A stretch of 64,000 nt of DNA, taken from the IMG/VR virus record IMGVR_UViG_2541047860_000002; one strand, 5' to 3'. The notes beneath the pieces are model-generated. The model did no database searches. It had not been told where the DNA came from and saw only the letters and a list, made by a program, of their open reading frames with translations. Source of the DNA: a virus. Taxonomy: Duplodnaviria; Heunggongvirae; Uroviricota; Caudoviricetes. Shown in pieces: positions 1 to 46,827 of this stretch (the first letter of the stretch is position 1; each line of letters begins with the position of its first letter). The translations under genes and the position numbers were made by a program.

Positions 1-1459
1 CTGGTACCGAGTTCTCTTAAACCAAGGTATTGGATAACAGCCAGTGTGCTTGTTTTAGCCAGAATATCGCGACCGACTGACGTTAAATCAGTCTGCGCTA
101 CCGTATCCTTACCGGTGAAATAAGGCAGTTTGTTTGCACCAGTCGCAAGACCAGCGAGCGCGGTTAAAGTTGCATCCAGAGGCTGTTTGCCTGCCAGCGC
201 ATTTGTCATGGTTGTCGCAAAGTTCGGGTCATTGCCCAATGCTGCTGCAAGCTCATTCAGGGTATCAAGAGCTTCAGGTGATGAGCCGACCAATGCAGAG
301 ATAGCAGCCCGTACGTAAGCAGTCGTAGCGATCTGCGTATTGTTTGTGCCCTGTGCGGCGGTCGGCGCAGTAGGGACACCCGTTAATGCAGGGCTTGCCA
401 AAGGCGCTTTGAGAGCCAGGGCATTGTTGATAGTTGTGCTGAAATTCGGGTCGTTATTGATCGCAGCCGCTATTTCTTTCAACGTATCCAATGTGCTAGG
501 CGCACCGTTGATAAGTGTCGTTATAGCTGCCTTAACAAAGGCTGTATTTGCAATCTGCGTGCTATTTGTGCCTTGTGAGGCCGTAGGCGCTGTCGGTGTA
601 CCTGTAAACGCCGGGCTTGCCAAAGGAGCTTTAAGAGCCAGTGCGTTATTGATAGTTTCGCTGAACTTTGGGTCGTTATTGATGGCTGCTGCAATTTCTT
701 TCAGCGTGTCCATCGTTCCCGGAGCACCATTGATAAGCGCATTTATAGCAGCATAGACAAAGGCCGCATTTGCGATCTGTGTGTTGTTTGTACCGGGTTC
801 AGGTGTTGGCGAAGTCGGCGTACCTGACAGATGCGGACTATCGAGCGGAGCTTTTGTATCAACCAAATCATGGAGAGTTTTGACAGCCAGAGGTGTAGCC
901 GCTTTTCTTTCTTCTGTACTGCTTATTTCATTAGAGAATTCGACACCAACAGCACGGTTAACCCGGTATTTAAGCACAATCATTTCTTTAGTCACAGCCG
1001 TTGCGCCGCTAGGCACGATAACTCGACATAATTCAATTTGATTCTGCCCAATAGTATTGTCCGTACGCGCGTAAATTCTTGCAGCACTGACAGAAGATGC
1101 GCTATCTACCTGTGTCGTTTTTACACCATGTTCAAAATTGGCTTCCAGCACAATAATGTTGGTAGCCCCTGCCTTTACCGAGACAGTCACATCTTCTATT
1201 TGCTGAACGGATATCTGAACATTATTCACATCTACTGAAGCAGCCCCTTTACCTTCTGAATTTTCAGAAGTTATACGGACGCTCAACCCTGTGCCGGGAA
1301 CTGGTTCAAATCCACAGTAAAAGCCAGGCAAAACAATATTTTTTAGTTTTCTGTTAAGAGCCGAACTACTATAGAGTTCGAAATATTGAACATCAGCAAG
1401 CAAAGGCTGTGAGACACCAGAGGATAGTGTCATTATGTTGTTCGTTTTATCAGCCCCCA
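1..1459 (-). CDS. Phage tail fibre protein, partial (start codon at 1459, 3' end runs off the window)
   Basis: Minus-strand translation from ATG 1459 gives three ~43-aa repeats (SPxFTGTPTAPT..GTNxTQIANTAFV..LINGAP.TLDTLKEIAAAINNDPxF) and a C-terminal LPYFTGKDTVAQTDLTSVGRDILAK motif typical of side tail fibres; no in-window stop, so absent from ORF track. Confidence 0.8.
180..830. repeat. Tandem ~129-bp coding repeats inside the tail fibre gene
   Basis: Three near-identical nucleotide blocks visible by eye; they generate the spurious plus-strand ORFs 130..318, 340..756, 781..1041. Confidence 0.5.
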
Positions 1460-1462
1460 TAA

Positions 1463-1909
1463 TCAACCCTCAACTTGCTCGATTGTCATGAGAATACTGT
1501 AACGTTTACCTTTATAGAGGGTATCTTGCTGGGTGCAAAGCACACCAAAAGCCTGTTCCTCAGCATCAACAAGCACAAGCGTGTTAAAGTCGTAAGGCGT
1601 GTTATCCGGCATTCTTTCTTGAGGGAAGGCTGCATTGATAGTGATAATCCCATCCACGCTGGACAATATCAGATCGGACACGGCAAACTGTTGAGCGTCA
1701 CTCAATTTAAAATCGAGTGGAATGTCCGCTATATTCCAGCCTCCTGCACCATTAGCAGTTACCAGACTAGATTTGCACCAATACGCCTTAGAGATAACAA
1801 AACGCGCACCTTTGCCGATCGCCGACTCTGCGCGGCGTGAATAATAGTAGGAAAGCAATTGCGCCTTATACAGGCGGTTACCATCTCTTGCCTTTAAATT
1901 TTCAGCCAT
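1463..1909 (-). CDS. Hypothetical protein immediately upstream of tail fibre gene (tail fibre operon)
   Basis: 148-aa ORF, position only. Confidence 0.4.
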   Translation of the reverse strand: MAENLKARDGNRLYKAQLLSYYYSRRAESAIGKGARFVISKAYWCKSSLVTANGAGGWNIADIPLDFKLSDAQQFAVSDLILSSVDGIITINAAFPQERMPDNTPYDFNTLVLVDAEEQAFGVLCTQQDTLYKGKRYSILMTIEQVEG

Positions 1910-2003
1910 ACGAACATAGCCCCTTCATAAGCAATGAACCAAAGGAGAGTATGCTCAGTTTGTGATTTCCGTTGTTCTTCCCCCAAATGCGGGGGAAGAA
2001 TTA

Positions 2004-2849
2004 TTAAACAGGTTGAAGGTGGTAATCCAAAGGCCACGCATCGAGTGGGGTTACATCAAGATGTAATTGCTTTTCTGCCGTTCGGTTCGGTATGGCGTTA
2101 AGAGAAATATTGTCTACCTGGCAGGAGGTATCACTACGGGATAGCACATCAGCCATACTCTCAGTAACATAAACACCTTCAATTACCGAAACATCCGTAG
2201 ACAAGCAATTTAGTATTTCTGCCACTTCAGGGAATACAGCACTAAGCCGAAACGAGACGCCATCAAAAACAATATGCAATGGCAACAAAGGGGCTATTAC
2301 TGTTTCGAAGTCAGATAACAATTTCTGCACAGCCGCCTCTTTATCCTGCTCTCCATATGAGCGATATAGCTTGTTCTGATCAACAACGACCAGCCCCCTT
2401 GATGTCAGGAAGAACTCACCGAATTGAGCCTGTGCCGTAGGTATTTCTATTTCGGTCGCAAAATATGAACCATAGGGGTGTTTTTCTATATTTACAGGTG
2501 CATACAGCGGTTCCCAACTAACAGGAATACAACCGAATTCACGCCAGAATGTCTGCTCAATTGGCAAGATAGTGCCTTTAAAGTGCACTTCATCTAAACG
2601 TTGTGCCAGCAGCATTGGCCTACGAGCCTTATCTTTTTCAGTGATAACGAAAAAACGCCCGTATTCAGCAATGCGGGCATCCATATCCTCACTGTCCATA
2701 GTGAAGAAGGATTTTCTGTTACTTATTCTTGTTAATATTGGTTCTACTGCCTCATTCCAGACATCCTGTAAAGCGTCTATAAATGCACTCCAGAGATGTG
2801 AATCCTGTTTTACTTTAGTTAATCGTTCCTTAAGCCAATTATCTTTCAT
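2004..2849 (-). CDS. Hypothetical tail/baseplate protein
   Basis: 281-aa ORF co-oriented in morphogenesis block. Confidence 0.4.
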   Translation of the reverse strand: MKDNWLKERLTKVKQDSHLWSAFIDALQDVWNEAVEPILTRISNRKSFFTMDSEDMDARIAEYGRFFVITEKDKARRPMLLAQRLDEVHFKGTILPIEQTFWREFGCIPVSWEPLYAPVNIEKHPYGSYFATEIEIPTAQAQFGEFFLTSRGLVVVDQNKLYRSYGEQDKEAAVQKLLSDFETVIAPLLPLHIVFDGVSFRLSAVFPEVAEILNCLSTDVSVIEGVYVTESMADVLSRSDTSCQVDNISLNAIPNRTAEKQLHLDVTPLDAWPLDYHLQPV

Positions 2850-2859
2850 GCTAACCTCA

Positions 2860-4290
2860 TTACGGGTAAGAAATACTGAACGTTGAAGATTTCACGTCAA
2901 GATAAATGAAGTCATTAAAGTAAACTGCATCTTTCATATTTTGTATTGTTATGTCATAAGAGAGAAACATATCCAGCGACTCTATTACTCGCCAAATATC
3001 TTTAACTTTTACCTGTGCATAACATTGCTGAGAATCATCATCACTCTGTAGTAATAAACTGAATGATGACGAATCACGACCAAAATTATCTTCCAACGCT
3101 GCTTTAATAGCATTTTGAGCGTCGTCTATCAGAACATTTTTACGTGCAATACCTGTAAATTTTATAGTAAATGGTTGTTCATTTGTATCTACATACTCAA
3201 ACCGCTTGTTCAACTCATTTGGAACATTCTCTAGAGCTTTCAGTATTTCTGATTTTAGCTGAGCCTGGCTTACACCTGGCTTATGTCCGCAAAAGAAAAT
3301 CTTGTTGATGTTTCGAACGTCAAACCCAGTTATTTTCTCTTGTAACGCTTCGCCCCAAACGTTCAACCATGAAGTTCCATGAACAACATTCTGAATGAAT
3401 TGGCGATAATCACCGCCCCATACCACTTGTTCATCGTATGCAACATAATACTGAGCACGATTTCGAGTTTCTTCTGTAGTTTCCATACCACTACCACCGG
3501 TAATGATCGAATCAGTTTTAAACTCTAGTGACTCCACATATTGAGCGATATTTCCAGCCGGTTCTAACTTTTGTCCTTCAGCCAAAGTATAGTCGCCAAG
3601 GCTAGCCATAACATCGATTCGAACCTGACAGCCTGCTGGAGGCATCATACCCATAGAACCATCACCAAACTTGACTCCTAGTTGTTCTGTAGGTTTATAT
3701 GCCAATGAATAGTGCTTACTCTTGTCTCTGGACATTCTAAATAATGGGTTATATGTCCATTTTTCTTCTACGCCATCTGTAATAACATAAACATCCAGGC
3801 TGGAGACTTCTTTTGTTAACTCTCTGGAAAGCAACAATGTCAGAAATAAAGTTTCCTTCTCAATATCAAATGTAACGCTAACAGCTTCATGCTGTTTAGT
3901 TTCTACGCCAGAAACAGTTCCTCCAGCAGGAATTACAACACTATTAATAATTGCCAAAGGTGTTTGGTCATTGGCAAGCAATTCAGCCCCGGCTGGTAAC
4001 GTAATATCCCGATCAGTTTTATTAGTTATAGACGTTGTTCCGTATGAAGCACTAACAAATCGCCCTACGTAACTACGGTCTTCAGCAACCGCTAAAATAC
4101 TTGAGCGGCGCGTAGCCGTTGAAATAAGTCCCTCAGTGAGGCCGCGGCTTGCAAATGTACGAGCAATATAAATAAGCTGTGATCCGAATATAGCGTGCAT
4201 CTGCACAAACTGACTATTTACAAATCGTGACCACCATGTGTTTTCATTTAACTTAGCGTTAAATTTATCCAGTAATTCTGTAATCGTCAC
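2860..4290 (-). CDS. Baseplate protein, gpJ-like
   Basis: 476-aa ORF; size, position next to gp25-like gene and overall resemblance to baseplate J family. Confidence 0.5.
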   Translation of the reverse strand: MTITELLDKFNAKLNENTWWSRFVNSQFVQMHAIFGSQLIYIARTFASRGLTEGLISTATRRSSILAVAEDRSYVGRFVSASYGTTSITNKTDRDITLPAGAELLANDQTPLAIINSVVIPAGGTVSGVETKQHEAVSVTFDIEKETLFLTLLLSRELTKEVSSLDVYVITDGVEEKWTYNPLFRMSRDKSKHYSLAYKPTEQLGVKFGDGSMGMMPPAGCQVRIDVMASLGDYTLAEGQKLEPAGNIAQYVESLEFKTDSIITGGSGMETTEETRNRAQYYVAYDEQVVWGGDYRQFIQNVVHGTSWLNVWGEALQEKITGFDVRNINKIFFCGHKPGVSQAQLKSEILKALENVPNELNKRFEYVDTNEQPFTIKFTGIARKNVLIDDAQNAIKAALEDNFGRDSSSFSLLLQSDDDSQQCYAQVKVKDIWRVIESLDMFLSYDITIQNMKDAVYFNDFIYLDVKSSTFSISYP

Positions 4291-4661
4291 GCGCCCACCC
4301 CACTTGATTTCTGCATAACAATATCCATGCTCCCACCTTTCGCATAAAAACTAATTAATAAAGAATCTTCAGAAATTGATGTGCAACGAATCCCCTCCAC
4401 ATCCAAACCTGGCAAGTCTTGTCGTAGTTTTTTCATCATTCTCCCTTCAATAGCCACTTCAACTATGTGCGAAGTTTCAGAGCCGAATGGTTCATGCTTA
4501 AATTCTTCCATTGGATTCCCCCAAGAGGGTAAACCATAAACACTCCCTTCAGGGGTTCGTAGCCACTCGTCAAGTCGGGCCATCCATGCTGCGGTACTTC
4601 CTTCTGCAATAATGACACCGCTCTCATTCGTTTGAAGTCTTGCGTCTATTTCATAAAGCAT
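4287..4661 (-). CDS. Baseplate wedge protein, gpW/gp25-like
   Basis: 124-aa ORF overlapping downstream gene start by 4 nt; size and context. Confidence 0.45.
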   Translation of the reverse strand: MLYEIDARLQTNESGVIIAEGSTAAWMARLDEWLRTPEGSVYGLPSWGNPMEEFKHEPFGSETSHIVEVAIEGRMMKKLRQDLPGLDVEGIRCTSISEDSLLISFYAKGGSMDIVMQKSSGVGA

Positions 4662-4666
4662 CTGTA

Positions 4667-7600
4667 TTAATCCTCAAGCAGAGCATCCAGCGACGGGTCA
4701 TTAATAGTTGTGCTAGCACGTGGTCGCGGTTGCGGCTGCGATGTTTTGACAACCTTATCCGGATCGCCTTTTGTATTGTTCTTGTTCACATTCAGAAGGT
4801 CGTTCAGGATAGAGCAGATGTTATCCAGCGCCTTCAACATAGCAGGATCGTTATTTATAGTGTCAGTAGTTAATGGTTGTCTTATTCCGCTTCGTGCGAG
4901 ATCTGTTACAGTAGGAAGCTGTGGTGGCATAGCAAGAAAAGGTTCTTGCACGGCTGACGCAGAGCCAAATATGGCATTATTGGCTTCGTTTGATATACCT
5001 CTAATGCTATCTGCGGTTTGTTGAATACCATTATTCAGCCAACTACCGGCGCTCCTGGTAAGCGGGCTAATAGCCCTAGCAATTGTTGAGTTCTGCCCAG
5101 TAGCCTGATAAACCAAATCATTAACAATGCCAGTGCCATCTACCCCACCAATAAGTCGTGAAACGTTATCGCCAATTGCAGGTAACACAGCAGAGCTAAT
5201 ACGTTTCAGACCTGTTAATGACGAGTCAAACAAAGAGCCAAGCACCCCCTTATCTTCACCATCAATTACCTTGTATCCATTGTCATAAACTGGAATCCCC
5301 CTTGAGTTTACAGAGATTTTTTCACTCTCACTTGCCGAAGAAACACCGGAAAGAAGATCCACTGAAGGCATATCGCGTTCAGCTTTTGGTCTTTTTTGTA
5401 AAGCGTCTCTTATATCAGTTACCTGGCTTGCTTTTTGAAATCCAAAAGATTTACCGGTTAAGCTGGATATCTTTTCAGTAAGAGCCTGATCCATTCCTTT
5501 CGCTTTTTCGGAAAGCGAAGATATAGAACCAAACGAAGTCGCCGACGCAAAATCCTTAATCAGGCCAAGGCTTGTACCAGCAAGGCTGGTAGCCGCACCT
5601 CCAAATAAATTACCTACCCCGCTGTCATTTATAGCGATTAATCTCTCAAGCAGACTTGATGGCGAGCCAGTATTAACATCAACATTCTCTGGATTAATCG
5701 GTTGCGATTGATTGCCTGTTTTTTGTGGCTTTTTGACTGCCTGGGCATGTTGTGCAACCTCAATTGGCTGTTGTGTTGCTGTCGGAACGGCATTCAAAAC
5801 TGGTTGAGCTGGAGATTTTCCATTAGCATATTTTACCTTGCGACCAACACTATATTGCGAATTGCGGGCAATTAGCTGACCACCATTTTCTTTCTGAATT
5901 TTATTAATCCGCGCCAATGTTTCGTCAGAGAATTGTCCCTCCCATCGACCAGTGTTTGTGTTAAATGCCCCAAGAGCATTCTTTATGAACTCATTGTTAA
6001 CCGCCGGGTTTCCACCTTCTTTCGTCGCTATTGCACGAACTAATTGCGTCATAACCTCTGGGTTGCTGACGTCTATTTTTTCATTAGGCGAGACGCCAAG
6101 ATATTTGCTGACGTTATCAATATATTGATTAGTATTGTTCTCCTTTGGGGGTGCCCATTTGGAAATAATACTGGATACCGTCTGTAGCTTCTGATACCCA
6201 GCGGCGGCGCTGGTGCCGTTGTAATAGCTTGACACCTGGTTTGCCAGCGCCCTGATCCCTTCTTCAGGCGTGTTAAATCGCGCAAAACGTTGTTCACCTT
6301 TTGCATTTGGTGCTTCCAGCGCCGCCCCTTCCTGATTAGCGAAAACAAGGTTGCCGAGGTTATTATTCCGGTAATTGCGGTTTTTAGCGTTGCTGCCACC
6401 AATATTCAGATCCGCTGCAATGGTGTTGCTGGCAGGGGCATTAAATTCAGCCGGGGAAGTATACCCGTGCTCACCAACACCATCTTCACCATCACGCCCG
6501 CCTTGTAGCTGCTCACCTAAAGAATGAATCGCATCGACGGTCTTCTTGGTGCCATCCTCAACCGCTTTTTTTACTTGTTTCGTGTTTTCGTCAGTGGATA
6601 AAAATGTATCCTTAAGGCTACCAAAAACAGATTTGGTGATATCTACTGCACCGTTAACACCACGAGCAATATCTCCGGTATCAAAATTCTGAAGTTTTTC
6701 ACCAGCTCTTTCAAATCCTAGCGCAGAAATTCCTTTCCCTATCAAGTTTGTTGCGCCCGACACCAAGCCCCCCATATCGAGCACATTAGCTGTTGCGTAA
6801 GCCGTTTTTTGCTGTTCGGATACAGCATCATCGTCACTTAAACCAAAGGCTGCCTTTTGCGCCTCTGTATCTGTGTAACCATCTATGGCGTCATATCCAG
6901 CCATTGCCAGCGAACCGATGATAGGGACCGCTCTTGCCGCTGTGGATGCTGCTGATTTAACACCTATTTTTGCAGCACTTTTGAGGGCTACAGATTCAGT
7001 TTTTTTCTTTGCAATGGCTTCGCCGGTTTTAATGGTAGTATCTTCAGCCACAACACCAGCTGACTTCACGGCCTTAGCAGTATTTTTTGTTTCCTTTGCA
7101 ATCCCCTTTGATGTATCGCTGATAGTGCTTACATCTTTGGGTTTGCTGATCTTATTTTTAACTGCTTTGGCTGTTCCGACACCAGTGCCAGCTGCAGCGC
7201 TACCGGCAGCAACTTTTTCGCCAACGGAGAGTGCTTTTTTCCCAAGATTGCGGCCTTTCCTTTTCGATTTGTTCCGTTTATTTTTTCCCGCCCGATCACC
7301 AATATTGATTTTATTTCTTCTGCTTGCTCGATTTTTCCAGAGATCACTTAAGCCGAACTTATTTCCAGAAGACACTGATTTCCGAAGCTTAACTATCTCG
7401 TCAGAAACATTTTCCAGACCATCAATTATTTTGTTGTCATTGGTCTGAAGGATTTTGGTTTGCTCTTCTACTGCTTGTGCGGATTTTGTCTCAACAGCGT
7501 TATTGAACGCTTTTGCAGATGTTGATTTTTGAGAATTCACCGCCGCCGGATAAGTAATTACTGGTGATATCGCTTTCGAGGTTGATGTTTCTTTTTTCCC

Positions 7601-19618: not shown

Positions 19619-20422
19619 CTATGGTTCCTTTTTGGTGTTCGTTTGGAGCGCGTCGATAACGCCTTGTGGCATGATTAAACTGATTGCCGGACTCATTACT
19701 GCATCATCCAGTAGAGAACCAGTTAACGTGATGGCGACAGCGTTCTCTAAACCTTTGGTTGCCTGAGTGGTTGACGTTTTAATGCGACCTGCAAGGGCTA
19801 CGACACTCTCACTTGCTGAGTTAATTTCGGAGAGTAAAACTTCGGCGGCTGTCACTGCTTCCCGTAAAGCATCAATTTCATCCTGAGTAATGACTGGAGC
19901 CTGAGCGCCCCCAGTACCACCCTGCCCACCATTGCTATCACCACCAGCACTTCCGGCAGCTTCAATTTTTGCGTTAATGGCGTTCATGGCGGTTTTCAGA
20001 GCATCAAGTTTTAGCGCCGTCAATGCGTCCGTTAGAGATTGCGGAATGGAAACATTCCCCATTCCCTCAACAAGGGCGAAAGCAGGTATGGGGGGCAGCT
20101 CGTTACCTTTTGCGTAGCATTCCCAGCCAATCTTCATCTGTAACAGCTCTGATGGCTTGGTGTATGGGGAAAGAGAATCAGCCAGTAATGAAGACGCTTT
20201 GCTGGCCTCATTGAGCTGTTCAGAAAAGCCAAGCAATTGAGTAGTCCAGGCCGAAACAGAATCAGGATAGGTTTTATCGGCGTGAACTATTCCCTGTATG
20301 GCGCTGGCGAGTGATGAGGCTTTTACAGAAGCTGCCCGGCTTATGGTTATAGATTCTGGTGTAGAGATACCGGCATCTGACAGAATTTTGAAGGCTTTAA
20401 CTTCACCTATTGAATCAAGCAT
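19619..20422 (-). CDS. Hypothetical protein (Gly-rich linker, coiled-coil)
   Basis: ORF track start 20521 trimmed to internal ATG at 20422, which overlaps the stop of the upstream PAAR-like gene. Confidence 0.4.
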   Translation of the reverse strand: MLDSIGEVKAFKILSDAGISTPESITISRAASVKASSLASAIQGIVHADKTYPDSVSAWTTQLLGFSEQLNEASKASSLLADSLSPYTKPSELLQMKIGWECYAKGNELPPIPAFALVEGMGNVSIPQSLTDALTALKLDALKTAMNAINAKIEAAGSAGGDSNGGQGGTGGAQAPVITQDEIDALREAVTAAEVLLSEINSASESVVALAGRIKTSTTQATKGLENAVAITLTGSLLDDAVMSPAISLIMPQGVIDALQTNTKKEP

Positions 20423-20706
20423 TATGCAACCTGAAAAATATCCTCGCCGTTGGCGATAACAGAACCACAAGAAAGCGGATCGCCTACACAGACAACTCCC
20501 TTTCCACCTATCGAAAACCATACTCGCGTCGATACAGCTGCCCCTGGGTGTGCACTGTTACCGTCAGTGTGACTGGGAAACATGGCACCATCTACAACAA
20601 CTGGCTTACCGTTAACGGTGAACCAAGGAACGGTTTCAGCTACCAGTCGCGGCGGAAATCCTCCGTGACCAGAACAAAGGGTGTCGCTGGTGGCTATTGC
20701 GCTCAT
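20422..20706 (-). CDS. PAAR-like spike-tip protein (putative)
   Basis: 94-aa protein with CSGHGG and SCGSVIANG motifs resembling PAAR-like domains. Confidence 0.4.
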   Translation of the reverse strand: MSAIATSDTLCSGHGGFPPRLVAETVPWFTVNGKPVVVDGAMFPSHTDGNSAHPGAAVSTRVWFSIGGKGVVCVGDPLSCGSVIANGEDIFQVA

Positions 20707-20972
20707 TCTTCACCTCCTGGTTATCCTCCTATTGTCATCACTTTGTTATTTCGTCATTCAAACGGAGAGTTAAATTTCGGAATATTTTTGTATTCTCAAT
20801 TCATTCGCAAATAAATCTCACTATCAGCCCATCATTCAGTGGGTGATTAAGATATTCTCAAAATAAACTCAACAAGCGCTCTTTTTTGTCTCGTTTGGTG
20901 TGGATTTTTGGGGGCTTCTCTTTTAAAATTACATTTTGATTCTCAAATGTGTCTCAGAAGTGGAGCAAGAAG

Positions 20973-21929
20973 ATGCGCATTTTTATCGATGATGGTTCAA
21001 CCAATATCAAAATGCTGTGGGAGCACGACGGGGAAACTCGCACTCACATCAGTCCTAACAGCTTTAAGCGCGGATGGTCAGCAACATTTGGTGCTGGCAA
21101 GCCGTTTAACTATGTCATTGACGACGAAAAGTATTCGTATGATTTGATCTCGCCAGATGTTCTGCCGACGAATAACGTGGAATGGCAATACAGCCCGCTT
21201 AACGTCCTGGCTGTTCACCATGCCCTGCTGACAAGTGGCATTGAGCCGCAGGAAGTAGAAATTGTGGTCACGCTGCCTCTGGCGGAGTTTTACGACGACG
21301 ACGCGCAATACAATCTCGATAACATCGAGCGCAAGAAAGCCAGCCTTATGCGCCCCGTCACGCTGAATAAAGGCAATGTGTTCACGATTAAGAAAGTTAC
21401 GGTACGCCCGGAGTCTATTCCGGCAGGAATTGGCCTGTGCGACAATCTGAACCCTGCCCATTCTGTTCTTATCGTCGATTTGGGTGGAACTACCCTTGAT
21501 GTTTCAATGGTCGCCGGGCAAATGACGGCAGTTTCCCGTGTTTTTGGCGATTCAAATCTTGGCGTCTCTCTGGTTACCAGGGAAGTAAGGCAAGCACTTG
21601 CCAGAGCCAATACCGAAACGTCAAATTACAATGTCGATCAGCTCATTATTAACCGCCACGATGAAGATTATCTGAACGACAATATCAATGACCCATCAGC
21701 GATTGGTGATGTGAAAAAGGCCATTGCCGCAAGCATTGACCGTCTGCGTACCCGCGTTCTTGATGTGATTGGCGACTTTAAAGGATATACGCATGTCATG
21801 GTGATCGGTGGTGGCGCACCGCTGGTGGCAGATGCAATTCGCGAGCAAGTTAATATTCGTGATGACCGTTTCTTCGTGGCGGATGACCCGCAACTTGCTC
21901 TTGTTCATGGCCTGAAAGCAATCGGTTAA
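20973..21929 (+). CDS. parM: Plasmid segregation actin-like ATPase ParM/StbA
   Basis: MRIFIDDGSTNIKM, ISPNSF, VAVHHALLTSG, IIDLGGTTLD and GYTHVMVIGGGA motifs closely matching ParM; GGAG 7 nt upstream of ATG 20973. Confidence 0.85.
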   Translation: MRIFIDDGSTNIKMLWEHDGETRTHISPNSFKRGWSATFGAGKPFNYVIDDEKYSYDLISPDVLPTNNVEWQYSPLNVLAVHHALLTSGIEPQEVEIVVTLPLAEFYDDDAQYNLDNIERKKASLMRPVTLNKGNVFTIKKVTVRPESIPAGIGLCDNLNPAHSVLIVDLGGTTLDVSMVAGQMTAVSRVFGDSNLGVSLVTREVRQALARANTETSNYNVDQLIINRHDEDYLNDNINDPSAIGDVKKAIAASIDRLRTRVLDVIGDFKGYTHVMVIGGGAPLVADAIREQVNIRDDRFFVADDPQLALVHGLKAIG

Positions 21930-21936
21930 CGAGGTA

Positions 21937-22281
21937 ATGTCCATGTCTCAGGAACGTAAGAAAGTGATGATTTATCTTCGCCCAGAGGCTTATGCCAATG
22001 AAAAGGCGGCGAGCGAGAAGATAAAAAAACATAGCGATATGGCAAGAACCGCATTGTTGGCAGGGCTTGCGCTGGGAGAAGTCGATAGCAGGCTTCCAGG
22101 ATTACTGGCTTCTCTGCTGACCGAAGATAATAATCCGGAGCTGATCCGAAAAATGCTGGCATCCTTCCTGGAACTACCAGCTGCGGTTGAGGAGCGCCCT
22201 GCCTCCATTGAGCCAGTGAAGGAGCAAGTTGTTGCCAAAAGCGCGTCGGCGCGCAATCTGGCTGACTCTCTACCTGATTGA
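21937..22281 (+). CDS. parR: ParR-like partition adaptor (RHH)
   Basis: 114-aa ORF immediately downstream of parM. Confidence 0.55.
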   Translation: MSMSQERKKVMIYLRPEAYANEKAASEKIKKHSDMARTALLAGLALGEVDSRLPGLLASLLTEDNNPELIRKMLASFLELPAAVEERPASIEPVKEQVVAKSASARNLADSLPD

Positions 22282-22319
22282 CAGAAGATGTGCTGGTTTA
22301 AGGCTGCAAATTGCAGCCT

Positions 22320-22420
22320 TTTTTATACCTTAATGGTGCCTAATTGGTGTTAATCTGGCACCAGTTAGGTGCTGTTATGGTGCAATTTTGTATCTGGTTC
22401 CAATTTGGGGCTGATTTCGT
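22320..22420. repeat. Centromere-like repeat cluster (GGTGCNC / CCAATT elements) upstream of parA
   Basis: TGGTGCCTAATTGGTG, TGGCACCAGTTAGGTGC, TGGTGCAATTTTG, GGTTCCAATTTGG. Confidence 0.45.
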
Positions 22421-22568
22421 GTTAAATAGGATGCAATATAAGGTGTATTTGGTCTGATTGATGTTATACTTTGCCAAACATTCATGACTCCATTATAGAG
22501 CCTGTCCCGCATCAAAAAGGCTCTTATCTGGAACCGTTTTGATACCAAAATCACACCGAGGAACGGAT

Positions 22569-23210
22569 ATGATTATATTGGTAGTCAGCCAAAAAGGTGG
22601 CTGTGGAAAATCAACCACAAGCGTAAACATCTGTGCGGAGCTTGCCCGCGCAAATAAGGATGTAGTGTTACTAGATGCAGACAAGCAAGGAACAGCTGCC
22701 CGCTGGGCAGCTGACCGTAACACGGCAGAGGTTTCTCCTGTTATTCATTGTGTCCAGAAGTTTGGTAATATTCGAGAAACACTTCTCGATCTGGATAAGC
22801 GTTATGAATTTGTAGTTGTTGATACAGCCGGGCGCGATAGCAAAGAGATGCGTACAGGCATAACCGCTGCAGATATTGTGTTGGTCCCATTCAGACCATC
22901 TCAACCAGATTTAGACACGCTGGCACACTTTGTTGAAGTGTTTGAAGAGGCTTTGGACCTGATGCCTAATCCTAGCATTAAGGCGTTCGCAGTCTTAACA
23001 ATGGCCCCATCCAATCCGGTTGTGAATGAAACTAATGAGGCCAAAGAGTACCTGGCTGAATATCCGCAACTGAAGTTGCTGAAAACCATCATTCGTGATC
23101 GTAAGGTTTACCGCGATTGCATGGCTGAAGGGAAGGGCGTTGTTGAGATGGACAACGGGAAAGCTAAAGGTGAAATCCAGATGTTGGTTAAGGAGTTATT
23201 AAGTGATTAA
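22569..23210 (+). CDS. parA: ParA/ParF-type partition ATPase (type Ib)
   Basis: Deviant Walker A KGGCGKST near N-terminus; ORF track start trimmed to MIILVVSQKGG. Confidence 0.8.
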   Translation: MIILVVSQKGGCGKSTTSVNICAELARANKDVVLLDADKQGTAARWAADRNTAEVSPVIHCVQKFGNIRETLLDLDKRYEFVVVDTAGRDSKEMRTGITAADIVLVPFRPSQPDLDTLAHFVEVFEEALDLMPNPSIKAFAVLTMAPSNPVVNETNEAKEYLAEYPQLKLLKTIIRDRKVYRDCMAEGKGVVEMDNGKAKGEIQMLVKELLSD

Positions 23211-23490
23211 GCCTCGTAAATCGGTAAAAGCCCCCGAAGTAAAAGACCCCGATCTTGAACGCCGAATTGAGGATTTTGCCAGTAAGGCTGATTTGGTGCC
23301 GGGTGAGCAACCAGAAGACAACAAAGTGCTCGATAAGGACGCTCCACGTGATTTTAAATCTATTCGTGTTGGTTTCAATGAATACGAGTACCAAGTACTT
23401 GATGCGTTAAGTAAAAAGCATAATCGCAGCAAATTGAATATGATCCGCCATGCTATCCTCATGTTAGCGGAGTCTGAGGAAGCAAAATAA
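23203..23490 (+). CDS. ParG-like small centromere-binding protein
   Basis: 95-aa ORF overlapping parA stop. Confidence 0.5.
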   Translation: MIKPRKSVKAPEVKDPDLERRIEDFASKADLVPGEQPEDNKVLDKDAPRDFKSIRVGFNEYEYQVLDALSKKHNRSKLNMIRHAILMLAESEEAK

Positions 23491-23524
23491 AGTCTTTCAG
23501 GTTGGTTTTAGAACTTAAAAAGTC

Positions 23525-23590
23525 TTGAACCAAGGTGTACCAATACACCACTAATTTGGTGCACCTTTACATCCTTTTTGGTTCCAATTG
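23525..23590. repeat. Second centromere-like repeat cluster downstream of parG
   Basis: GGTGTACCAATACACC palindrome, TTTGGTGCACC, GGTTCCAATTGTGTACC. Confidence 0.45.
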
Positions 23591-23757
23591 TGTACCATTT
23601 ATCATTAATTTACTTATGCGCAAAAGTGGGCTTCATGAAAAAGCTCATTATTGAAATAACGATAGAAAGCAATTTCTAATCAACTAGTGGTTGTCAGCCT
23701 ATTCGGCTTATAAGATCATACGCTGTTATACGTTGTTTACGCTTTGAGGAATCCACA

Positions 23758-25419
23758 ATGAGTGAGGCAGAAGCCCGCCCGACTAACTTTATTCGTCAGA
23801 TCATCGATGAAGATCTGGCCAGTGGTAAGCACACCACAGTACATACCCGTTTCCCGCCGGAACCGAATGGCTATCTGCATATTGGTCATGCGAAATCTAT
23901 CTGCCTGAACTTCGGGATCGCCCAGGACTATAAAGGCCAGTGCAACCTGCGTTTCGACGACACTAACCCGGTAAAAGAAGATATCGAGTACGTTGAGTCG
24001 ATTAAAAACGACGTTGAATGGTTAGGTTTTCACTGGTCTGGCAACATCCGTTACTCCTCCGATTATTTTGACAAACTCCATGCCTATGCTGTTGAACTGA
24101 TCAACAAAGGCCTGGCGTATGTTGACGAACTGACGCCGGAACAGATCCGCGAATACCGCGGCACCCTGACGCAGCCGGGTAAAAACAGCCCGTACCGCGA
24201 CCGCAGCGTTGAAGAGAACCTGGCGCTGTTCGAAAAAATGCGTGCCGGTGGTTTTGAAGAAGGTAAAGCCTGCCTGCGTGCGAAAATCGACATGGCTTCG
24301 CCGTTTATCGTGATGCGCGACCCGGTGCTGTACCGTATTAAGTTTGCTGAACACCACCAGACTGGCAACAAGTGGTGCATCTACCCGATGTACGACTTCA
24401 CCCACTGCATCAGCGATGCGCTGGAAGGTATTACGCACTCTCTGTGTACGCTTGAGTTCCAGGACAACCGTCGTCTGTATGACTGGGTACTGGACAACAT
24501 CACCATTCCTGTTCACCCGCGCCAGTACGAATTCTCGCGCCTGAATCTGGAATACACCGTGATGTCCAAGCGTAAGCTGAACCTGCTGGTGACCGACAAG
24601 CACGTTGAAGGCTGGGATGACCCGCGTATGCCGACCATTTCCGGTCTGCGTCGTCGTGGTTACACTGCGGCTTCTATTCGTGAGTTCTGCAAACGCATCG
24701 GCGTGACCAAGCAGGACAACACCATTGAGATGGCGTCGCTGGAATCCTGCATCCGTGAAGATCTCAACGAAAATGCCCCGCGCGCAATGGCGGTTATCGA
24801 TCCGGTGAAACTGGTTATCGAAAACTACCAGGGCGAAGGCGAAATGGTCACCATGCCGAACCATCCAAACAAACCGGAAATGGGTAGCCGTCAGGTGCCG
24901 TTTAGCGGTGAGATTTGGATCGACCGCGCCGATTTCCGCGAAGAAGCTAACAAGCAGTACAAACGTCTGGTGCTGGGTAAAGAAGTGCGTCTGCGTAATG
25001 CTTACGTCATTAAGGCTGAACGCGTGGAGAAAGATGCCGAAGGCAATATCACCACCATCTTCTGTACTTATGACGCCGACACCTTAAGCAAAGATCCGGC
25101 AGATGGTCGTAAAGTGAAAGGCGTTATTCACTGGGTGAGCGCGGCACATGCGCTGCCGGTTGAAATTCGCCTGTACGACCGTCTGTTCAGTGTACCGAAC
25201 CCAGGTGCTGCGGATGATTTCCTGTCGGTGATTAACCCGGAATCGCTGGTGATCAAACAAGGCTTTGCTGAACCGTCGCTGAAAGAAGCGGTAGCGGGTA
25301 AAGCATTCCAGTTTGAGCGTGAAGGTTATTTCTGCCTCGACAGCCGCCATTCTACGGCGGAAAAACCGGTATTTAACCGCACCGTTGGGCTGCGTGATAC
25401 CTGGGCGAAGTTAGGTTAA
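23758..25419 (+). CDS. glnS: Glutaminyl-tRNA synthetase
   Basis: 553-aa class I aaRS with HIGH (HIGHAKS) and VMSKR motifs and full-length enterobacterial GlnRS-like sequence; own promoter region and terminator. Confidence 0.95.
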
Positions 25420-44482: not shown

Positions 44483-44486
44483 TGAG

Positions 44487-45179
44487 GTGGATCAAAAAAT
44501 GAAAGAACGCGGGATGATTTTTAACGATGAGATGGTCAGGGCCATCCTCGAAGGAAGGAAGACGCAGACTCGCCGACCTGTAAAAAATGTCAGGGCCGAT
44601 AACTGCCTGGTTATCCGTAAACCGACAAAGAAACGCAATGGTGTCTATACCCACGTTATGGATGCACCTGAACATGGTTTATGCCCGTTCGGTAACGTTG
44701 GTGATCGCATATGGGTCCGTGAGGCGTGGGCGATATTAGGCAATGAGGATGGTTGCAGTGTGGACTGGAACGACAACCTTTGTCGTGGCGATGAGAAGAA
44801 CGCAGCAAGGATTTATCGGGCCAGTTGTGAGCAAAAGCCGGGTGATTACGGCTTGTGGTCGATACCCGATGATGCCGACTGGAAACCTCACACTGTGAAT
44901 GAAAAATTTGATGGCGGGTGGCGTCCATCAATTCACATGCCGCGCTGGGCATCGCGCATTTTGCTGGAAATTACCGACGTGCGTGTGGAACGGCTGCGTG
45001 ATATGAGCGAGGCAGATGCTAAAGCAGAAGGCGCATCTCCGGCGATGTACAAAATTACGCCGCCGGAAGCTGTTTATCGCGTTGGTTTTGGTGATATCTG
45101 GCGCAGTATTTACGGGCAGGATAACTGGCTATCTAACCCGTGGGTATGGGTAATCGAGTTTAAGCGCATTCAGGAATAA
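44487..45179 (+). CDS. Hypothetical protein
   Basis: 230-aa ORF. Confidence 0.4.
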   Translation: MDQKMKERGMIFNDEMVRAILEGRKTQTRRPVKNVRADNCLVIRKPTKKRNGVYTHVMDAPEHGLCPFGNVGDRIWVREAWAILGNEDGCSVDWNDNLCRGDEKNAARIYRASCEQKPGDYGLWSIPDDADWKPHTVNEKFDGGWRPSIHMPRWASRILLEITDVRVERLRDMSEADAKAEGASPAMYKITPPEAVYRVGFGDIWRSIYGQDNWLSNPWVWVIEFKRIQE

Positions 45180-45262
45180 ACCGTGAGTATGCATCAAATC
45201 GTCAGTTTTTCAGGTGGACGAGCATCGGCCTGTCTCGTTCATCTGTTCGAAGAGGTAGTGGC

Positions 45263-45466
45263 ATGACAATCGTAAAAACCCATACCGGCACCGTGATCAC
45301 CAAAGACGGTCCGCAGGTAAAAAAACTGCACCAAACAGAGCGGATGTGGGTCGTCGGCAAAAATGAGTTTTACCACAAAGATACCGGACGCCGCCACTTT
45401 GCAGAAAATACGCGCCGTCGACTGCTGTTAGACACCATCAAGCCTATCGAGGTGAAGCATGTTTAA
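45263..45466 (+). CDS. Hypothetical small protein
   Basis: 67-aa ORF. Confidence 0.3.
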   Translation: MTIVKTHTGTVITKDGPQVKKLHQTERMWVVGKNEFYHKDTGRRHFAENTRRRLLLDTIKPIEVKHV

Positions 45467-45698
45467 ACAGAACGAAAAAGCTATCGCTCAAATTGCTGAT
45501 TATATCCCGCGTGCGTGCCGGGGTATGCAGTTGCAGGAAGCCAAAGCGCGCCTGGAGAAAAAAATTGCGCTCTATATTGATGACGGCTGTGATGCTGCCG
45601 TTCTTAACGCGGCGTTCGCACCAGCTCTTAACAGTCATACTCGGGAGTCTTTTTTTTCGTGCATCGAAGCGCAACTCCGCAAAGGAGGCAACCAGTGA
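45459..45698 (+). CDS. Hypothetical small protein
   Basis: 79-aa ORF. Confidence 0.3.
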   Translation: MFKQNEKAIAQIADYIPRACRGMQLQEAKARLEKKIALYIDDGCDAAVLNAAFAPALNSHTRESFFSCIEAQLRKGGNQ

Positions 45699-46420
45699 GC
45701 CAGATTGATTATCAAAAGCTTCGTGAAATCGCTGAAAAAACAAAAATTGCCGGTGAAGCACCTGTAATGCCTTTCGATCAGCGAATTAATGCGCTTAACG
45801 ATTTTATGAAGCACTTTTCGCCAGATATCGCGCTGGCATTGTTGGATGAACGGGAAAGAAACCAGCAATACATCAAACGCCGCGACCAGGAGAACGAGGA
45901 TATTGCGCTTACGGTTGGGAGGCTGCGCGTTGAGCTGGAAGGCAAAGACAGCAAAATAGCCAATCTTACCGCCGAACGCGATGCTCTTCGTGAAGGTGAG
46001 ATGGGCGACGCTAGGCATAGCAACACACGGGCCGCAGCTGATATCTACTTCCAACTGGTCGAGGAATGCGAAATTCCTGCTGGCGGATCTCTGGTCGAGT
46101 ACGTTGACGATATGCGCGAGAAGCTGGAAGCCGCAGAGAAGCGCATTGCAGAACTGGAAGCACGGGAAATAAAACCAGCCAAAGGCGAAGTTCTTGTCGT
46201 TGTCTCTGGTTTTACTGGTTGCGGGAAAAGCGCCATTGCCGGGGAAATAGAAATTGCGATGAAAGCTATTGGTGTGCCGGTTCAATGGACTAATGGCGAT
46301 GCAGAAAAGCATATGACCGGCGCTGACTGGCTGACAGCGATTGAGATGTACAAACCAACTGTGCGCATCGTGGAAGTTAATGTGCCACGCGCCGCTGGCA
46401 TTCGCATCAAAGGAGAGTGA
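45695..46420 (+). CDS. Coiled-coil protein (Ead/Ea22-like)
   Basis: GTG start with AGGAGG 6 nt upstream, overlapping previous stop (GTGA). Confidence 0.4.
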   Translation: MSQIDYQKLREIAEKTKIAGEAPVMPFDQRINALNDFMKHFSPDIALALLDERERNQQYIKRRDQENEDIALTVGRLRVELEGKDSKIANLTAERDALREGEMGDARHSNTRAAADIYFQLVEECEIPAGGSLVEYVDDMREKLEAAEKRIAELEAREIKPAKGEVLVVVSGFTGCGKSAIAGEIEIAMKAIGVPVQWTNGDAEKHMTGADWLTAIEMYKPTVRIVEVNVPRAAGIRIKGE

Positions 46421-46617: not shown

Positions 46618-46827
46618 ATGGCTATTGCCGCAAGTTACACCATGCATCTCTATTGTGACTGCCGCCAGTGTACGGAAGGTGTATATCCAGTGCCAGACTT
46701 CGGTGAGTATATCGGTACGTCATGGTCTGGTTGTGCAAAAGAGGCGCGCAAGGATGGCTGGCGCATAAGCAAAGACAAAACGCGTGCTTTTGCGCCCGGG
46801 CATAAAGTTTTGAGGATTAACAAATGA
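46618..46827 (+). CDS. Hypothetical small Cys-rich protein
   Basis: Identical initiation region AAAGGAGAGTGATATGGC as previous gene. Confidence 0.35.
   Translation: MAIAASYTMHLYCDCRQCTEGVYPVPDFGEYIGTSWSGCAKEARKDGWRISKDKTRAFAPGHKVLRINK

What the first reader, a model, noticed from the sequence alone, without database searches (positions are those of the whole stretch)
20720..23600. Two different partition cassettes in tandem: actin-type ParM/ParR directly followed by Walker-type ParA/ParG
A clear ParM homologue with a ParR-like partner (20973-22281) is followed within 300 bp by a small deviant-Walker-A ParA with a ParG-like partner (22569-23490). Centromere-like repeat clusters flank the second cassette. 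P1 itself uses a single type Ia ParAB system. Carrying a type II and a type Ib system side by side is unusual and may reflect mosaic acquisition or a requirement for very high segregational stability.
Basis: partly seen in the sequence, partly recalled or inferred. Interest (0 to 1): 0.45.

Follow-up and report, generated by a model that had tools for sequence, protein, structure and literature searches.

The report
Double partition locus of D6-like phage-plasmid
This stretch of a D6-like phage-plasmid carries two complete plasmid-segregation systems side by side, an actin-type ParM/ParR set and a small ParA ATPase with a ribbon-helix-helix partner; the reading is correct, but the genes are already annotated in phage D6 and the combination is common on enterobacterial plasmids.

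Summary
The window is 98.2% identical to phage D6, a P1-related phage-plasmid.

**Genes and sites**
- parM lies at 20973-21929 and parR at 21943-22281. They are preceded by 11-bp-phased CTCA iterons at 20784-20959.
- A conserved terminator at 22300-22320 separates this operon from the next.
- A 213-aa deviant-Walker-A ParA lies at 22569-23210. It is translationally coupled to a 95-aa protein at 23203-23490.
- I show that this 95-aa protein has a C-terminal ribbon-helix-helix (RHH) domain.
- 11-bp-phased GGTRY boxes flank the second operon on both sides.

**Family assignment**

**Conservation and origin**
- Every D6-like plasmid I examined keeps both cassettes in this order.
- The motor proteins are conserved. 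The adaptors and repeat arrays diverge and reassort between relatives.
- The closest homologues outside the D6 group occur as separate modules, which supports mosaic assembly.

**Why it is not unusual**
- The D6 GenBank record (2018) already labels these genes StbA, StbB and possible ParA.
- pB171 has had a characterised type II plus type Ib double par locus since 2001.
- A 2026 survey counts 971 plasmids with this combination.

**What is new here**
- The RHH assignment of the D6 orf61 homologue.
- The map of the repeat arrays.
- The tandem layout with separate cis sites, whereas pB171 is divergent and shares one.

Function is inferred, not tested. Interest is low.

The parts
20784..20959 (+). 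parC-like array for the type II system. About 9 iterons in 11-bp phase with a CTCA core, best copies ATTCTCAA, lie in three clusters in the divergent intergenic region between the PAAR gene and parM. A conserved TAAAAT (20924-20929) between clusters is a candidate -10 element.
   Evidence: Lag-11 autocorrelation is 0.418, z = 4.2 against shuffles, and only 13 of 6382 same-size windows reach it. Spacings between CTC cores are multiples of 11 in all 7 alleles. Three of the 7 ATTCTCAA copies in 64 kb lie here. The promoter position is inferred; the consensus scan did not call it.
20973..21929 (+). parM (StbA), an actin-fold segregation ATPase of 318 aa. An alternative upstream GTG lies at 20949.
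   Evidence: Pfam StbA_N 1.8e-69 and ParM C-terminal domain 3.5e-55. R1 ParM structures match at 1e-111. PHROG 'partition protein' 3e-76. 99.7% identical to D6 orf58.
21943..22281 (+). parR (StbB), the centromere-binding adaptor of the type II system, 112 aa. The ATG at 21937 is not conserved as ATG in other alleles.
   Evidence: Pfam Plasmid_stab_B 3.5e-11. PDB 2jd3 'StbB protein' matches at 1.6e-6 over residues 3-74. The C-terminal SARNLA(D/N)SLPD is conserved even in the 58%-identical allele.
22300..22326 (+). Intrinsic terminator that ends the parMR operon: a 9-bp stem (AAGGCTGCA/TGCAGCCTT) followed by a T run.
   Evidence: Called by the terminator scan. The hairpin is present in all 7 alleles although the sequence on both sides diverges. 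Homology with several relatives breaks at about 22338.
22327..22568 (+). Upstream centromere/operator-like region of the type Ib system. About 12 units in 11-bp phase with a GGTRY core lie at 22327-22460. A conserved extended -10, TGTTATACT, lies at 22462-22470. Inverted boxes (GGAACC, GATACC, CACACC) lie at 22525-22560, just before the RBS.
   Evidence: Highest lag-11 autocorrelation in the whole window. 9 GGTRY boxes against 2.1 expected. 4 of the 8 phased GGTRY-N6-GGYRY matches in 64 kb lie here. TATACT is conserved in all alleles.
22569..23210 (+). parA, a small deviant-Walker-A partition ATPase of 213 aa with no N-terminal DNA-binding domain (type Ib).
   Evidence: NCBIfam ParA_partition 1e-47 and 162 bits over profile positions 1-203 of 203, which is below the 180-bit cut-off; VirC1 scores 52 bits and MinD 37 bits. 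TP228 ParF structure matches at 1e-18. 43% identical to the pB171-type ParA.
23203..23490 (+). Homologue of D6 orf61, 95 aa. It has a basic N-terminus (MIKPRK, R5 invariant), a helix at 16-29, a linker, and a C-terminal RHH domain at about 52-92. It is the predicted centromere-binding protein and ParA activator.
   Evidence: AlphaFold2 with an 85-sequence alignment gives pLDDT 84, and 94-98 over residues 51-90. Foldseek hits are almost all RHH proteins: CopG, Arc, TacA, ParD, ParG. PHROG Arc-like repressor 1.8e-4. Family members match Pfam NikA-like, RHH_1 and DUF6290. A ParA gene lies immediately upstream in 22 of 22 genome loci.
23525..23600 (+). Downstream centromere-like cluster, in the position of pB171 parC2. 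Boxes include GGTGTACC, CACC, GGTGCACC, GGTTCC and GTGTACC in roughly 11-bp phase.
   Evidence: 6 GGTRY boxes against 0.84 expected. Lag-11 autocorrelation 0.404, z = 3.1. A comparable cluster follows the gene pair in all alleles, including those that lack glnS.

Best explanation
This is the double partition (par) locus of a D6-like, P1-related phage-plasmid. It consists of two independent, complete segregation operons in tandem, and both most likely work to keep the low-copy prophage-plasmid in both daughter cells.

**Operon 1, type II (inferred mechanism)**
- ParR dimers bind the 11-bp CTCA iterons upstream of parM.
- The ParR-DNA complex caps ATP-ParM filaments, which grow between paired plasmid copies and push them apart.
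- ParR binding over the promoter region also represses the operon.

**Operon 2, type Ib (inferred mechanism)**
- The RHH protein binds the GGTRY boxes on both sides of the operon, so it also represses the embedded extended -10 promoter.
- Its basic N-terminal tail stimulates ATP hydrolysis by ParA bound to the nucleoid.
- The plasmid then follows the resulting ParA gradient and takes up evenly spaced positions over the nucleoid.

**What is shown and what is inferred**
- Shown: gene identities, the fold of the partner protein, the repeat arrays, the terminator, conservation across relatives and the linkage of the gene pairs.
- Inferred from the R1, pB171 and TP228 paradigms: DNA binding, ATPase stimulation, autoregulation and the contribution of each system to stability.
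For: - **Identity of the element.** The region is 98.2% identical to phage D6 over its whole length, and more than 100 non-mobilizable E. coli, Salmonella and Shigella plasmids of about 90 kb match it. The 64-kb window is collinear with D6.
- **Family assignment.** All four proteins fall in the expected families.
- **Cis sites.** The two intergenic regions have the strongest 11-bp periodicity in the whole window. Motif counts are enriched there.
- **Separate operons.** A conserved terminator lies between the two cassettes.
- **Both cassettes retained.** All 7 compared alleles keep both cassettes intact and in the same order.
- **Purifying selection on the motors.** parM is 81% identical in DNA but 94% in protein; parA is 84% in DNA but 93% in protein.
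- **Diverging adaptors and sites.** ParR ranges 58-99% and the RHH protein 77-100%, and the intergenic regions range 38-99%. They reassort independently: L011 has a new ParR and iterons with the same ParA and partner, and L003 shows the reverse. This is the pattern expected of working centromere-adaptor pairs.
- **Conserved ParA-RHH module.** The pair occurs together in 22 of 22 distant loci, several of them with the same phased boxes.
- **No other partition system.** No other ParA or ParM homologue lies in the window, and no P1-type parAB is annotated in D6.
- **Precedent.** The pB171-type double par locus has the same four kinds of component and the parC1-parA-parB-parC2 layout.
Against: - There are no functional data for this locus in anything I could read.
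- The ParA score of 162 bits is below NCBIfam's equivalog cut-off of 180.
- The Foldseek E-values for the RHH domain are weak, 0.16 or worse, because the domain is only about 43 residues. The support is that the hit list is nearly all RHH proteins with TM 0.67-0.83 normalised to the target.
- The monomer model shows no beta-strand, as expected when the ribbon only forms in a dimer.
- The consensus scan did not call either promoter.
- The repeat motifs are short and degenerate, and binding was not tested.
- Nothing shows that both systems contribute to stability.
Confidence: 0.8

Rival explanations
1. Only one of the two cassettes is the working partition system. The other is a redundant passenger or a decaying remnant of a recombination event that joined two plasmid backbones.
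For: The two cassettes have separate evolutionary origins. In some dual-par plasmids one system contributes little to stability; the discussion of SCP1 in PMC13245405 gives an example.
Against: Both cassettes are intact in all 7 diverged alleles, and every D6-like plasmid examined carries both. The DNA-versus-protein identities indicate purifying selection on both ATPases. Both keep phased repeat arrays and conserved promoter-like elements.
Confidence: 0.1
2. The ParA plus RHH cassette does not mainly segregate DNA. It would act as a repressor or incompatibility-exclusion module against competing phage-plasmids, or it would position some other cargo.
For: RHH proteins are very often plain repressors or antitoxins, and the best fold hits are CopG, Arc and TacA. 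A published re-annotation called a gene in this cluster 'cop', for copy-number control. ParA-like ATPases also position non-DNA cargo; this point comes from general knowledge.
Against: ParA matches the partition equivalog over its full length, more than 100 bits above VirC1 and MinD, and its best solved relative is ParF. The pair is strictly linked in 22 of 22 loci. Repeat arrays on both sides of the operon mirror pB171 par2. In a related plasmid the pair sits next to repB.
Confidence: 0.06
3. ParMR serves the phage side of the life cycle, for example by moving or organising replicating phage DNA during lytic growth. It would not serve prophage-plasmid inheritance.
For: ParM homologues of about 48% identity occur in small P88-like phage genomes of 31-40 kb. 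The cassette lies among virion genes: PAAR/upfC and upfB upstream, and tail genes further downstream.
Against: The closest relatives by far are plasmid ParM proteins, 54% identical to proteins annotated ParM on IncF-size plasmids and 1e-111 to R1 ParM. The cassette has an iteron array embedded around its promoter region, like R1 parC. The operon is transcribed away from the neighbouring late genes.
Confidence: 0.04

Closest known systems
Phage D6 orf58-orf61 (GenBank MF356679 / NC_050154; Gilcrease & Casjens 2018)
   Same: It is the same locus. The DNA is 98.2% identical over 3061 bp with the same four genes, the same neighbours (upfC/PAAR upstream, glnS downstream) and the same order. The record labels orf58 as StbA type, orf59 as StbB type and orf60 as 'possible ParA partitioning function'.
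   Different: orf61 is 'hypothetical protein' in the record, and here I assign it an RHH fold. The record annotates no centromere repeats, terminator or promoter. I could not read the paper itself.
Double par locus of E. coli plasmid pB171: par1 is parMRC (type II) and par2 is parC1-parA-parB-parC2 (type Ib). Ebersbach & Gerdes 2001; Ringgaard et al. 2007
   Same: It has the same four kinds of component, and the type Ib operon is flanked by repeat regions upstream and downstream. In a plasmid carrying this locus (L013, whose ParR is identical to PDB 2jd3), ParM is 43%, ParR 32% (N-terminal 75 aa) and ParA 43% identical to the window's proteins. Its partner is also a roughly 91-aa RHH protein.
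   Different: The pB171 operons are divergent and, from my recollection of Ringgaard et al. 2007, share the central parC1. Here they are in tandem, separated by a terminator, and have separate arrays. GGTRY boxes are not enriched upstream of parM: I counted 1 by eye in the sequence, against about 1.9 expected from the background rate. The RHH partners show no detectable sequence similarity. The window's ParM is closer to ParM proteins of IncF-size plasmids (54%) than to the pB171-type ParM (43%).
R1 / NR1 parMRC (stbAB), the type II paradigm
   Same: ParM matches the R1 ParM structures over its full length at 1e-111. ParR belongs to the same Pfam family. The 11-bp iterons are clustered around the promoter region upstream of parM. 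By my recollection R1 parC has ten 11-bp iterons in two clusters.
   Different: The iteron core is CTCA. I did not compare it with the R1 iteron sequence. There are about 9 iterons in three clusters, and the last two lie in the 5' leader. ParR is only remotely similar.
TP228 parFGH, the type Ib paradigm with an RHH centromere-binding protein
   Same: ParF is the best solved relative of the window's ParA, 1e-18 over the full length. ParG and the window's partner share the layout of a flexible N-terminal tail and a C-terminal RHH domain, and ParG appears among the fold hits (rank 13).
   Different: The partner has no Pfam ParG match. The repeat units differ: 11-bp-phased GGTRY boxes here, and a different arrangement in parH by my recollection. 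Here the repeats lie on both sides of the operon.

Membership tests
Type II (ParMRC) partition system | Actin-fold ATPase of the ParM/StbA family | tested here: met
   Pfam StbA_N 1.8e-69 and ParM C-terminal domain 3.5e-55, both far above their cut-offs. R1 ParM structures match at 1e-111 over 318 aa.
Type II (ParMRC) partition system | Small ParR adaptor encoded immediately downstream of parM | tested here: met
   Pfam Plasmid_stab_B 3.5e-11, 43 bits against a cut-off of 25. PDB 2jd3 matches at 1.6e-6. The gene starts 14 nt after the parM stop codon.
Type II (ParMRC) partition system | parC, an array of direct repeats upstream of parM that overlaps the promoter and is bound by ParR | tested here: inconclusive
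   The array is present and statistically supported. The iteron sequence and the predicted ParR beta-strand region both differ in allele L011. ParR binding and the promoter position cannot be tested with these tools.
Type II (ParMRC) partition system | Stabilises an otherwise unstable replicon | not testable with these tools
   This needs plasmid-loss assays.
Type Ib partition system (small ParA plus RHH centromere-binding protein) | ParA of about 200-230 aa with a deviant Walker A (KGGxxK[ST]) and no N-terminal DNA-binding domain | tested here: met
   The protein is 213 aa with KGGCGKST at residues 9-16. It aligns end to end with the 203-position ParA_partition profile and with the 206-aa ParF.
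Type Ib partition system (small ParA plus RHH centromere-binding protein) | Passes the curated NCBIfam ParA_partition equivalog threshold | tested here: not met
   The score is 162.3 bits against a cut-off of 180. It is still the best model by more than 100 bits.
Type Ib partition system (small ParA plus RHH centromere-binding protein) | Small partner with an RHH DNA-binding domain, co-transcribed downstream of parA | tested here: met
   The genes overlap by 8 nt. The AlphaFold2 model and Foldseek hits indicate an RHH fold. PHROG Arc-like 1.8e-4. Family members match Pfam RHH families. The pair is linked in 22 of 22 loci.
Type Ib partition system (small ParA plus RHH centromere-binding protein) | Repeat arrays next to the operon that the partner binds, serving as centromere and operator | tested here: inconclusive
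   Phased GGTRY arrays lie on both sides of the operon. Similar boxes occur in several distant homologous loci. Binding was not tested.
Type Ib partition system (small ParA plus RHH centromere-binding protein) | The partner's N-terminal tail stimulates the ParA ATPase | not testable with these tools
   Only suggestive evidence exists: the N-terminal basic motif has R5 invariant across 13 homologues down to 43% identity.
ParG family (Pfam PF09274, TP228 ParG) | Sequence match to the ParG profile | tested here: not met
   The partner matches no Pfam family at E <= 0.01. ParG is not among the 25 listed families matched by the 85 homologues; 39 families matched in all and only 25 are shown. The structural match to 1p94 is weak, probability 0.28.
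pB171-type double par locus | Divergent par1 and par2 operons that share one central cis region (parC1) | tested here: not met
   Here the operons are in tandem on the same strand with a terminator between them and separate arrays. The pB171-type locus L013 is divergent with a 228-bp central region.
   VirC1 scores 51.7 bits and MinD 36.6 bits, against 162.3 bits for ParA_partition.

The most novel reading that the evidence does not exclude
The two cassettes are not simply redundant. In the D6 lineage the conserved motors (ParM, ParA) are combined with fast-diverging adaptor-centromere pairs that recombine freely, with one junction just after the terminator near 22338. The double locus would then act as a two-key compatibility system. 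Related phage-plasmids could escape partition incompatibility with one another, or with resident F-like plasmids that carry similar par loci, while always keeping at least one system that is not interfered with.
Probability: 0.25. Interest if true: 0.45.

Novelty: already known. Interest (0 to 1): 0.2.

Why it matters
**What the result settles**
- The scan flagged a real but ordinary maintenance module.
- Double par loci that combine an actin-type and a small ParA-type system were characterised on pB171 in 2001 and are counted in hundreds of enterobacterial plasmids.
- These particular genes are already labelled in the phage D6 record.

**Small additions from this work**
- The unnamed fourth gene (the D6 orf61 homologue) is an RHH protein that always travels with this ParA subfamily.
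- The three repeat arrays, the terminator and the promoter-like elements are now mapped.
- In D6-like elements the motors are conserved while the adaptors and centromeres diverge and reassort.

**Possible use**
D6-like phage-plasmids are widespread in E. coli, Shigella and Salmonella. The map gives a ready design for stability and incompatibility experiments, but it does not open a new question.

Tried and rejected
- **D6 paper and pB171 paper.** I tried to read Gilcrease & Casjens 2018 (PMC5800970) and Ebersbach & Gerdes 2001 (PMC64986). Neither is held. What the D6 authors wrote about this locus is therefore known only from their GenBank notes.
- **pB171 record.** I tried to fetch pB171 by accession AB024946, which is not in the collection. 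I used an IncF plasmid that carries the same locus instead; its ParR is identical to PDB 2jd3.
- **Partner protein by sequence alone.** This gave no Pfam or NCBIfam match, no PDB match and only close relatives in the word-indexed search. The exhaustive representative search was needed to build a useful alignment.
- **First structure model.** The model from 9 close sequences was poor, pLDDT 58. The 85-sequence model was used instead.
- **Homology to pB171 ParB.** Profile-profile comparison of the partner family with the pB171-type ParB found nothing.
- **Shared-centromere or cross-talk idea.** I considered whether type Ib boxes occur upstream of parM, as in pB171 parC1. By eye in the sequence I counted only one GGTRY box there, against about 1.9 expected from the background rate. 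I dropped the idea. A pair of box-like 11-mers at 20894-20915 remains an untested lead.
- **RNA families.** An Rfam scan of 20500-23900 found nothing.
- **Promoters.** The consensus scan found no more promoter-like sites than in shuffled sequence and missed both conserved -10-like elements.
- **Lag-11 signal near 53.5 kb.** Inspection showed no obvious repeats.
- **Locus search with the 85-sequence alignment.** A 13-sequence alignment worked.


Full report
**What the sequence is**

The 3061-bp stretch 20700-23760 is 98.2% identical, end to end, to Escherichia phage D6 (MF356679, 56867-59927). It also matches 132 plasmid records at megablast level. 106 of these cover at least 80% of the query. 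They are almost all non-mobilizable replicons of about 90 kb from E. coli, Salmonella and Shigella. The whole 64-kb window is collinear with D6, from D6 coordinate ~36.4 kb through the origin to ~8.8 kb. D6 is a P1-related phage-plasmid. Its record annotates a Rep_3-type repA-like gene about 10 kb from this locus and no P1-type parAB. tblastn of the window with its own ParA and ParM, and with a type Ia ParA, found no further partition ATPase.

**Checking the observation: proteins**

- **ParM (20973-21929).** It matches Pfam StbA_N (1.8e-69) and the ParM C-terminal domain (3.5e-55). It matches the solved R1 ParM structures at 1e-111 over its full length.
- **ParR (21943-22281).** It matches Pfam Plasmid_stab_B (3.5e-11) and the solved 'StbB protein' 2jd3 (1.6e-6). 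By my recollection 2jd3 is pB171 ParR. An IncF plasmid with a pB171-type divergent double par locus encodes a protein identical to that chain.
- **ParA (22569-23210).** It is 213 aa, carries KGGCGKST, and aligns end to end with NCBIfam ParA_partition at 1e-47 and 162 bits. That is below the curated 180-bit cut-off but far above VirC1 (52 bits) and MinD (37 bits). Its best solved relative is TP228 ParF, 1e-18.

**The fourth gene**

The 95-aa product of 23203-23490 is 'hypothetical protein' (orf61) in the D6 record. It starts at a GTG that overlaps the parA stop region by 8 nt, with GGAG 8 nt upstream.
- **Sequence searches.** On its own it matches nothing in Pfam, NCBIfam or the PDB sequences. 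An exhaustive search of 1.84 billion representatives found 101 relatives, almost all between 54 and 141 aa.
- **Family matches.** Of 85 aligned relatives, 33 match Pfam NikA-like, 22 match RHH_1 and 16 match DUF6290. PHROGs gives an Arc-like repressor match at 1.8e-4 over residues 53-94.
- **Structure.** AlphaFold2 with the 85-sequence alignment gives mean pLDDT 84, and 94-98 over residues 51-90. It shows two helices (60-73, 77-92) after an extended segment, plus an N-terminal helix at 16-29. Foldseek against the PDB returns an almost pure list of ribbon-helix-helix (RHH) proteins: CopG, Arc, TacA, ParD, AmrZ, NikA, and ParG at rank 13. TM-scores normalised to the target are 0.67-0.83 and rmsd is 1.1-1.9 Å over about 42 residues. 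E-values are weak because the domain is so small.
- **Linkage.** In 22 of 22 loci recovered from species-representative genomes, a homologue lies immediately downstream of a ParA that is 59-70% identical in the 20 loci with a full-length match. None has ParM or ParR within 2.5 kb.
- **N-terminus.** R5 in the basic N-terminus is invariant across homologues down to 43% identity.

I conclude it is the RHH centromere-binding partner of this ParA subfamily. It resembles ParG in architecture but is not a member of the Pfam ParG family. It is not detectably homologous to the pB171-type ParB, which is itself an RHH_1 protein.

**Cis elements**

All three non-coding stretches show 11-bp periodicity. 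The two highest-scoring places for lag-11 autocorrelation in the entire 64 kb are the region upstream of parM and the parR-parA spacer.
- **Upstream of parM (20784-20959).** There are about nine CTCA-core iterons; the best copies read ATTCTCAA. Their spacings are multiples of 11 in all seven alleles compared. Three of the seven ATTCTCAA copies in the window lie within 155 bp here. A conserved TAAAAT at 20924-20929 between clusters is a candidate -10 element, but the consensus scan did not call a promoter.
- **After parR.** A 9-bp-stem terminator at 22300-22320 is conserved in every allele.
- **Upstream of parA.** About twelve 11-bp units with a GGTRY core occupy 22327-22460. A conserved extended -10, TGTTATACT, lies at 22462-22470. 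Inverted boxes lie just before the RBS.
- **Downstream of the partner gene (23525-23600).** A second cluster of the same boxes follows the operon.
- **Counts.** GGTRY occurs 9 times against 2.1 expected upstream and 6 times against 0.84 expected downstream. Four of the eight phased GGTRY-N6-GGYRY matches in the window lie in the spacer. Several distant ParA-RHH loci show the same phasing and boxes.

The layout of repeats, parA, partner gene, repeats is the same as parC1-parA-parB-parC2 of pB171 par2.

**Comparative picture**

Six further D6-family loci, including D6 itself, all keep both cassettes intact and in the same order. Five of these records are typed rep_cluster_1704, one of them together with IncFIA.

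| Component | Identity to the window |
|---|---|
| ParM protein | 94-100% |
| ParA protein | 93-100% |
| ParR protein | 58-99% |
| RHH partner protein | 77-100% |
| Intergenic arrays (DNA) | 38-99% |

- The motors are conserved although their DNA falls to 81-84% identity. That indicates purifying selection.
- The adaptors and arrays diverge much more and reassort. L011 combines a different ParR and iteron set with a near-identical ParA and partner. L003 does the opposite. L012 mixes upstream and downstream arrays of different types.
- Homology between the window and several relatives breaks at about 22338, just after the terminator.
- The ParR C-terminus SARNLA(D/N)SLPD stays constant across alleles. 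This fits a tail that contacts the conserved ParM; that role is an inference from the R1 system.
- Outside the D6 family the nearest relatives occur separately. A 67%-identical ParA plus partner lies next to repB on a stream-water enterobacterial plasmid that also has a type Ia parAB. A 70%-identical ParMR lies alone on a Providencia plasmid.

**How it most likely works**

By analogy with R1 and pB171 par1, ParR would coat the iteron array and couple plasmid pairs to growing ParM filaments that push them apart, while repressing parMR.

By analogy with pB171 par2 and TP228 parFGH, the RHH protein would coat the GGTRY arrays on both sides of its operon and repress the embedded promoter. Its N-terminal tail would trigger ATP hydrolysis by nucleoid-bound ParA, so that the plasmid rides ParA gradients to evenly spaced positions.

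Gene identity, fold, arrays, terminator, conservation and linkage are shown here. Binding, ATPase activation, autoregulation and the contribution of each system to stability are inferred. I put 0.8 on both cassettes being working partition systems. The rivals are that one cassette is a passenger (0.1), that ParA-RHH acts mainly as a regulator or exclusion module (0.06), and that ParMR has a lytic-cycle role (0.04).

**Comparison with what is known**

- **Same locus in D6.** The GenBank notes already say 'StbA type', 'StbB type' and 'possible ParA partitioning function'. A 2019 study of D6-like plasmids lists cop, parA, stbB and parM as the partition genes.
- **Same class in pB171.** A type II plus type Ib double par locus was characterised in pB171 (one search gives the references). 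The window's ParM, ParR and ParA are 43%, 32% and 43% identical to that locus's proteins.
- **Differences from pB171.** pB171 is divergent and, from my recollection of Ringgaard et al. 2007, shares its central parC1. This locus is in tandem with a terminator and separate arrays. The RHH partners are unrelated in sequence.
- **Frequency.** A 2026 survey of PLSDB found 971 accessions that combine a type I RHH-ParB system with a type II system.
- **Among phages.** Of 50,697 phage records, only D6 matches both ATPases. Other ParM hits are P88-like phages, and other ParA hits are below 43% identity.

**Verdict**

Novelty is 'already known'. The incremental results are the RHH assignment of the orf61 homologue, the map of cis elements, and the pattern of conserved motors with reassorting adaptors. 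Interest is 0.2.

The most novel reading still open is that the double locus, with its freely recombining adaptor-centromere pairs, lets related phage-plasmids escape partition incompatibility. I give it a probability of about 0.25 and interest of about 0.45 if true.

Noticed in passing
window 23758-25419 (+): A full-length glutaminyl-tRNA synthetase gene lies directly after the par locus (TIGR00440 glnS, 1067 bits). It is annotated in D6 as orf62. It is present in some D6-like alleles (L009, L012) and absent in others (L003, L010, L011), where a methylase or other genes follow the downstream repeat cluster. It therefore looks like variable cargo. Why a phage-plasmid carries a GlnRS is unexplained.
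   Followed up: partly
window 20422-20706 (-): A 94-aa PAAR-domain protein is transcribed divergently from parM (Pfam PAAR_motif 4.5e-06; NCBIfam T6SS PAAR domain 2e-08). It is the homologue of P1 upfC. Several GenBank plasmid records appear to label this gene 'alanine racemase' and parM 'recombinase', judging from which names replace 'PAAR domain-containing protein' and 'ParM' in the feature lists. These would be annotation errors.
   Followed up: no
window ~22338; loci L003, L004, L011, L012: A recombination junction lies just after the parMR terminator. Several D6-like plasmids are 94-98% identical up to window position ~22338 and then drop below megablast detection. L012 has an upstream array of one type and a downstream array of another.
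   Followed up: partly
L005 (CP045667.1, Enterobacteriaceae bacterium Kacie_13 plasmid) 1-5890: This plasmid is not a D6 relative and also has two partition systems around its repB. One is a type Ia ParA/ParB pair. The other is the closest ParA-RHH pair outside the D6 group, with ParA 67% and the partner 51% identical.
   Followed up: no
phage records H155-H168 (P88-like phages, 31-40 kb): ParM homologues about 48% identical to the window's ParM occur in small P88-like Escherichia and Citrobacter phages. This is unexpected if those phages integrate into the chromosome. I did not check their ParR, iterons or lifestyle.
   Followed up: no
window 20894-20915: Two adjacent 11-mers upstream of parM (TTTGGTGTGGA, TTTTTGGGGGC) resemble units of the type Ib array (AATTGGTGTTA, ATTTGGGGCTG). 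They sit where a -35 element for the TAAAAT candidate would be. This might allow cross-regulation of parMR by the RHH protein, which is what I recall being reported for pB171. There is no statistical support: by eye there is one GGTRY box in this intergenic region, against about 1.9 expected from the background rate.
   Followed up: partly
window 44484-46124, 46824-47114, 60893-62518: These segments have no megablast match to phage D6 in the otherwise collinear comparison. They are presumably variable accessory regions and were not examined.
   Followed up: no
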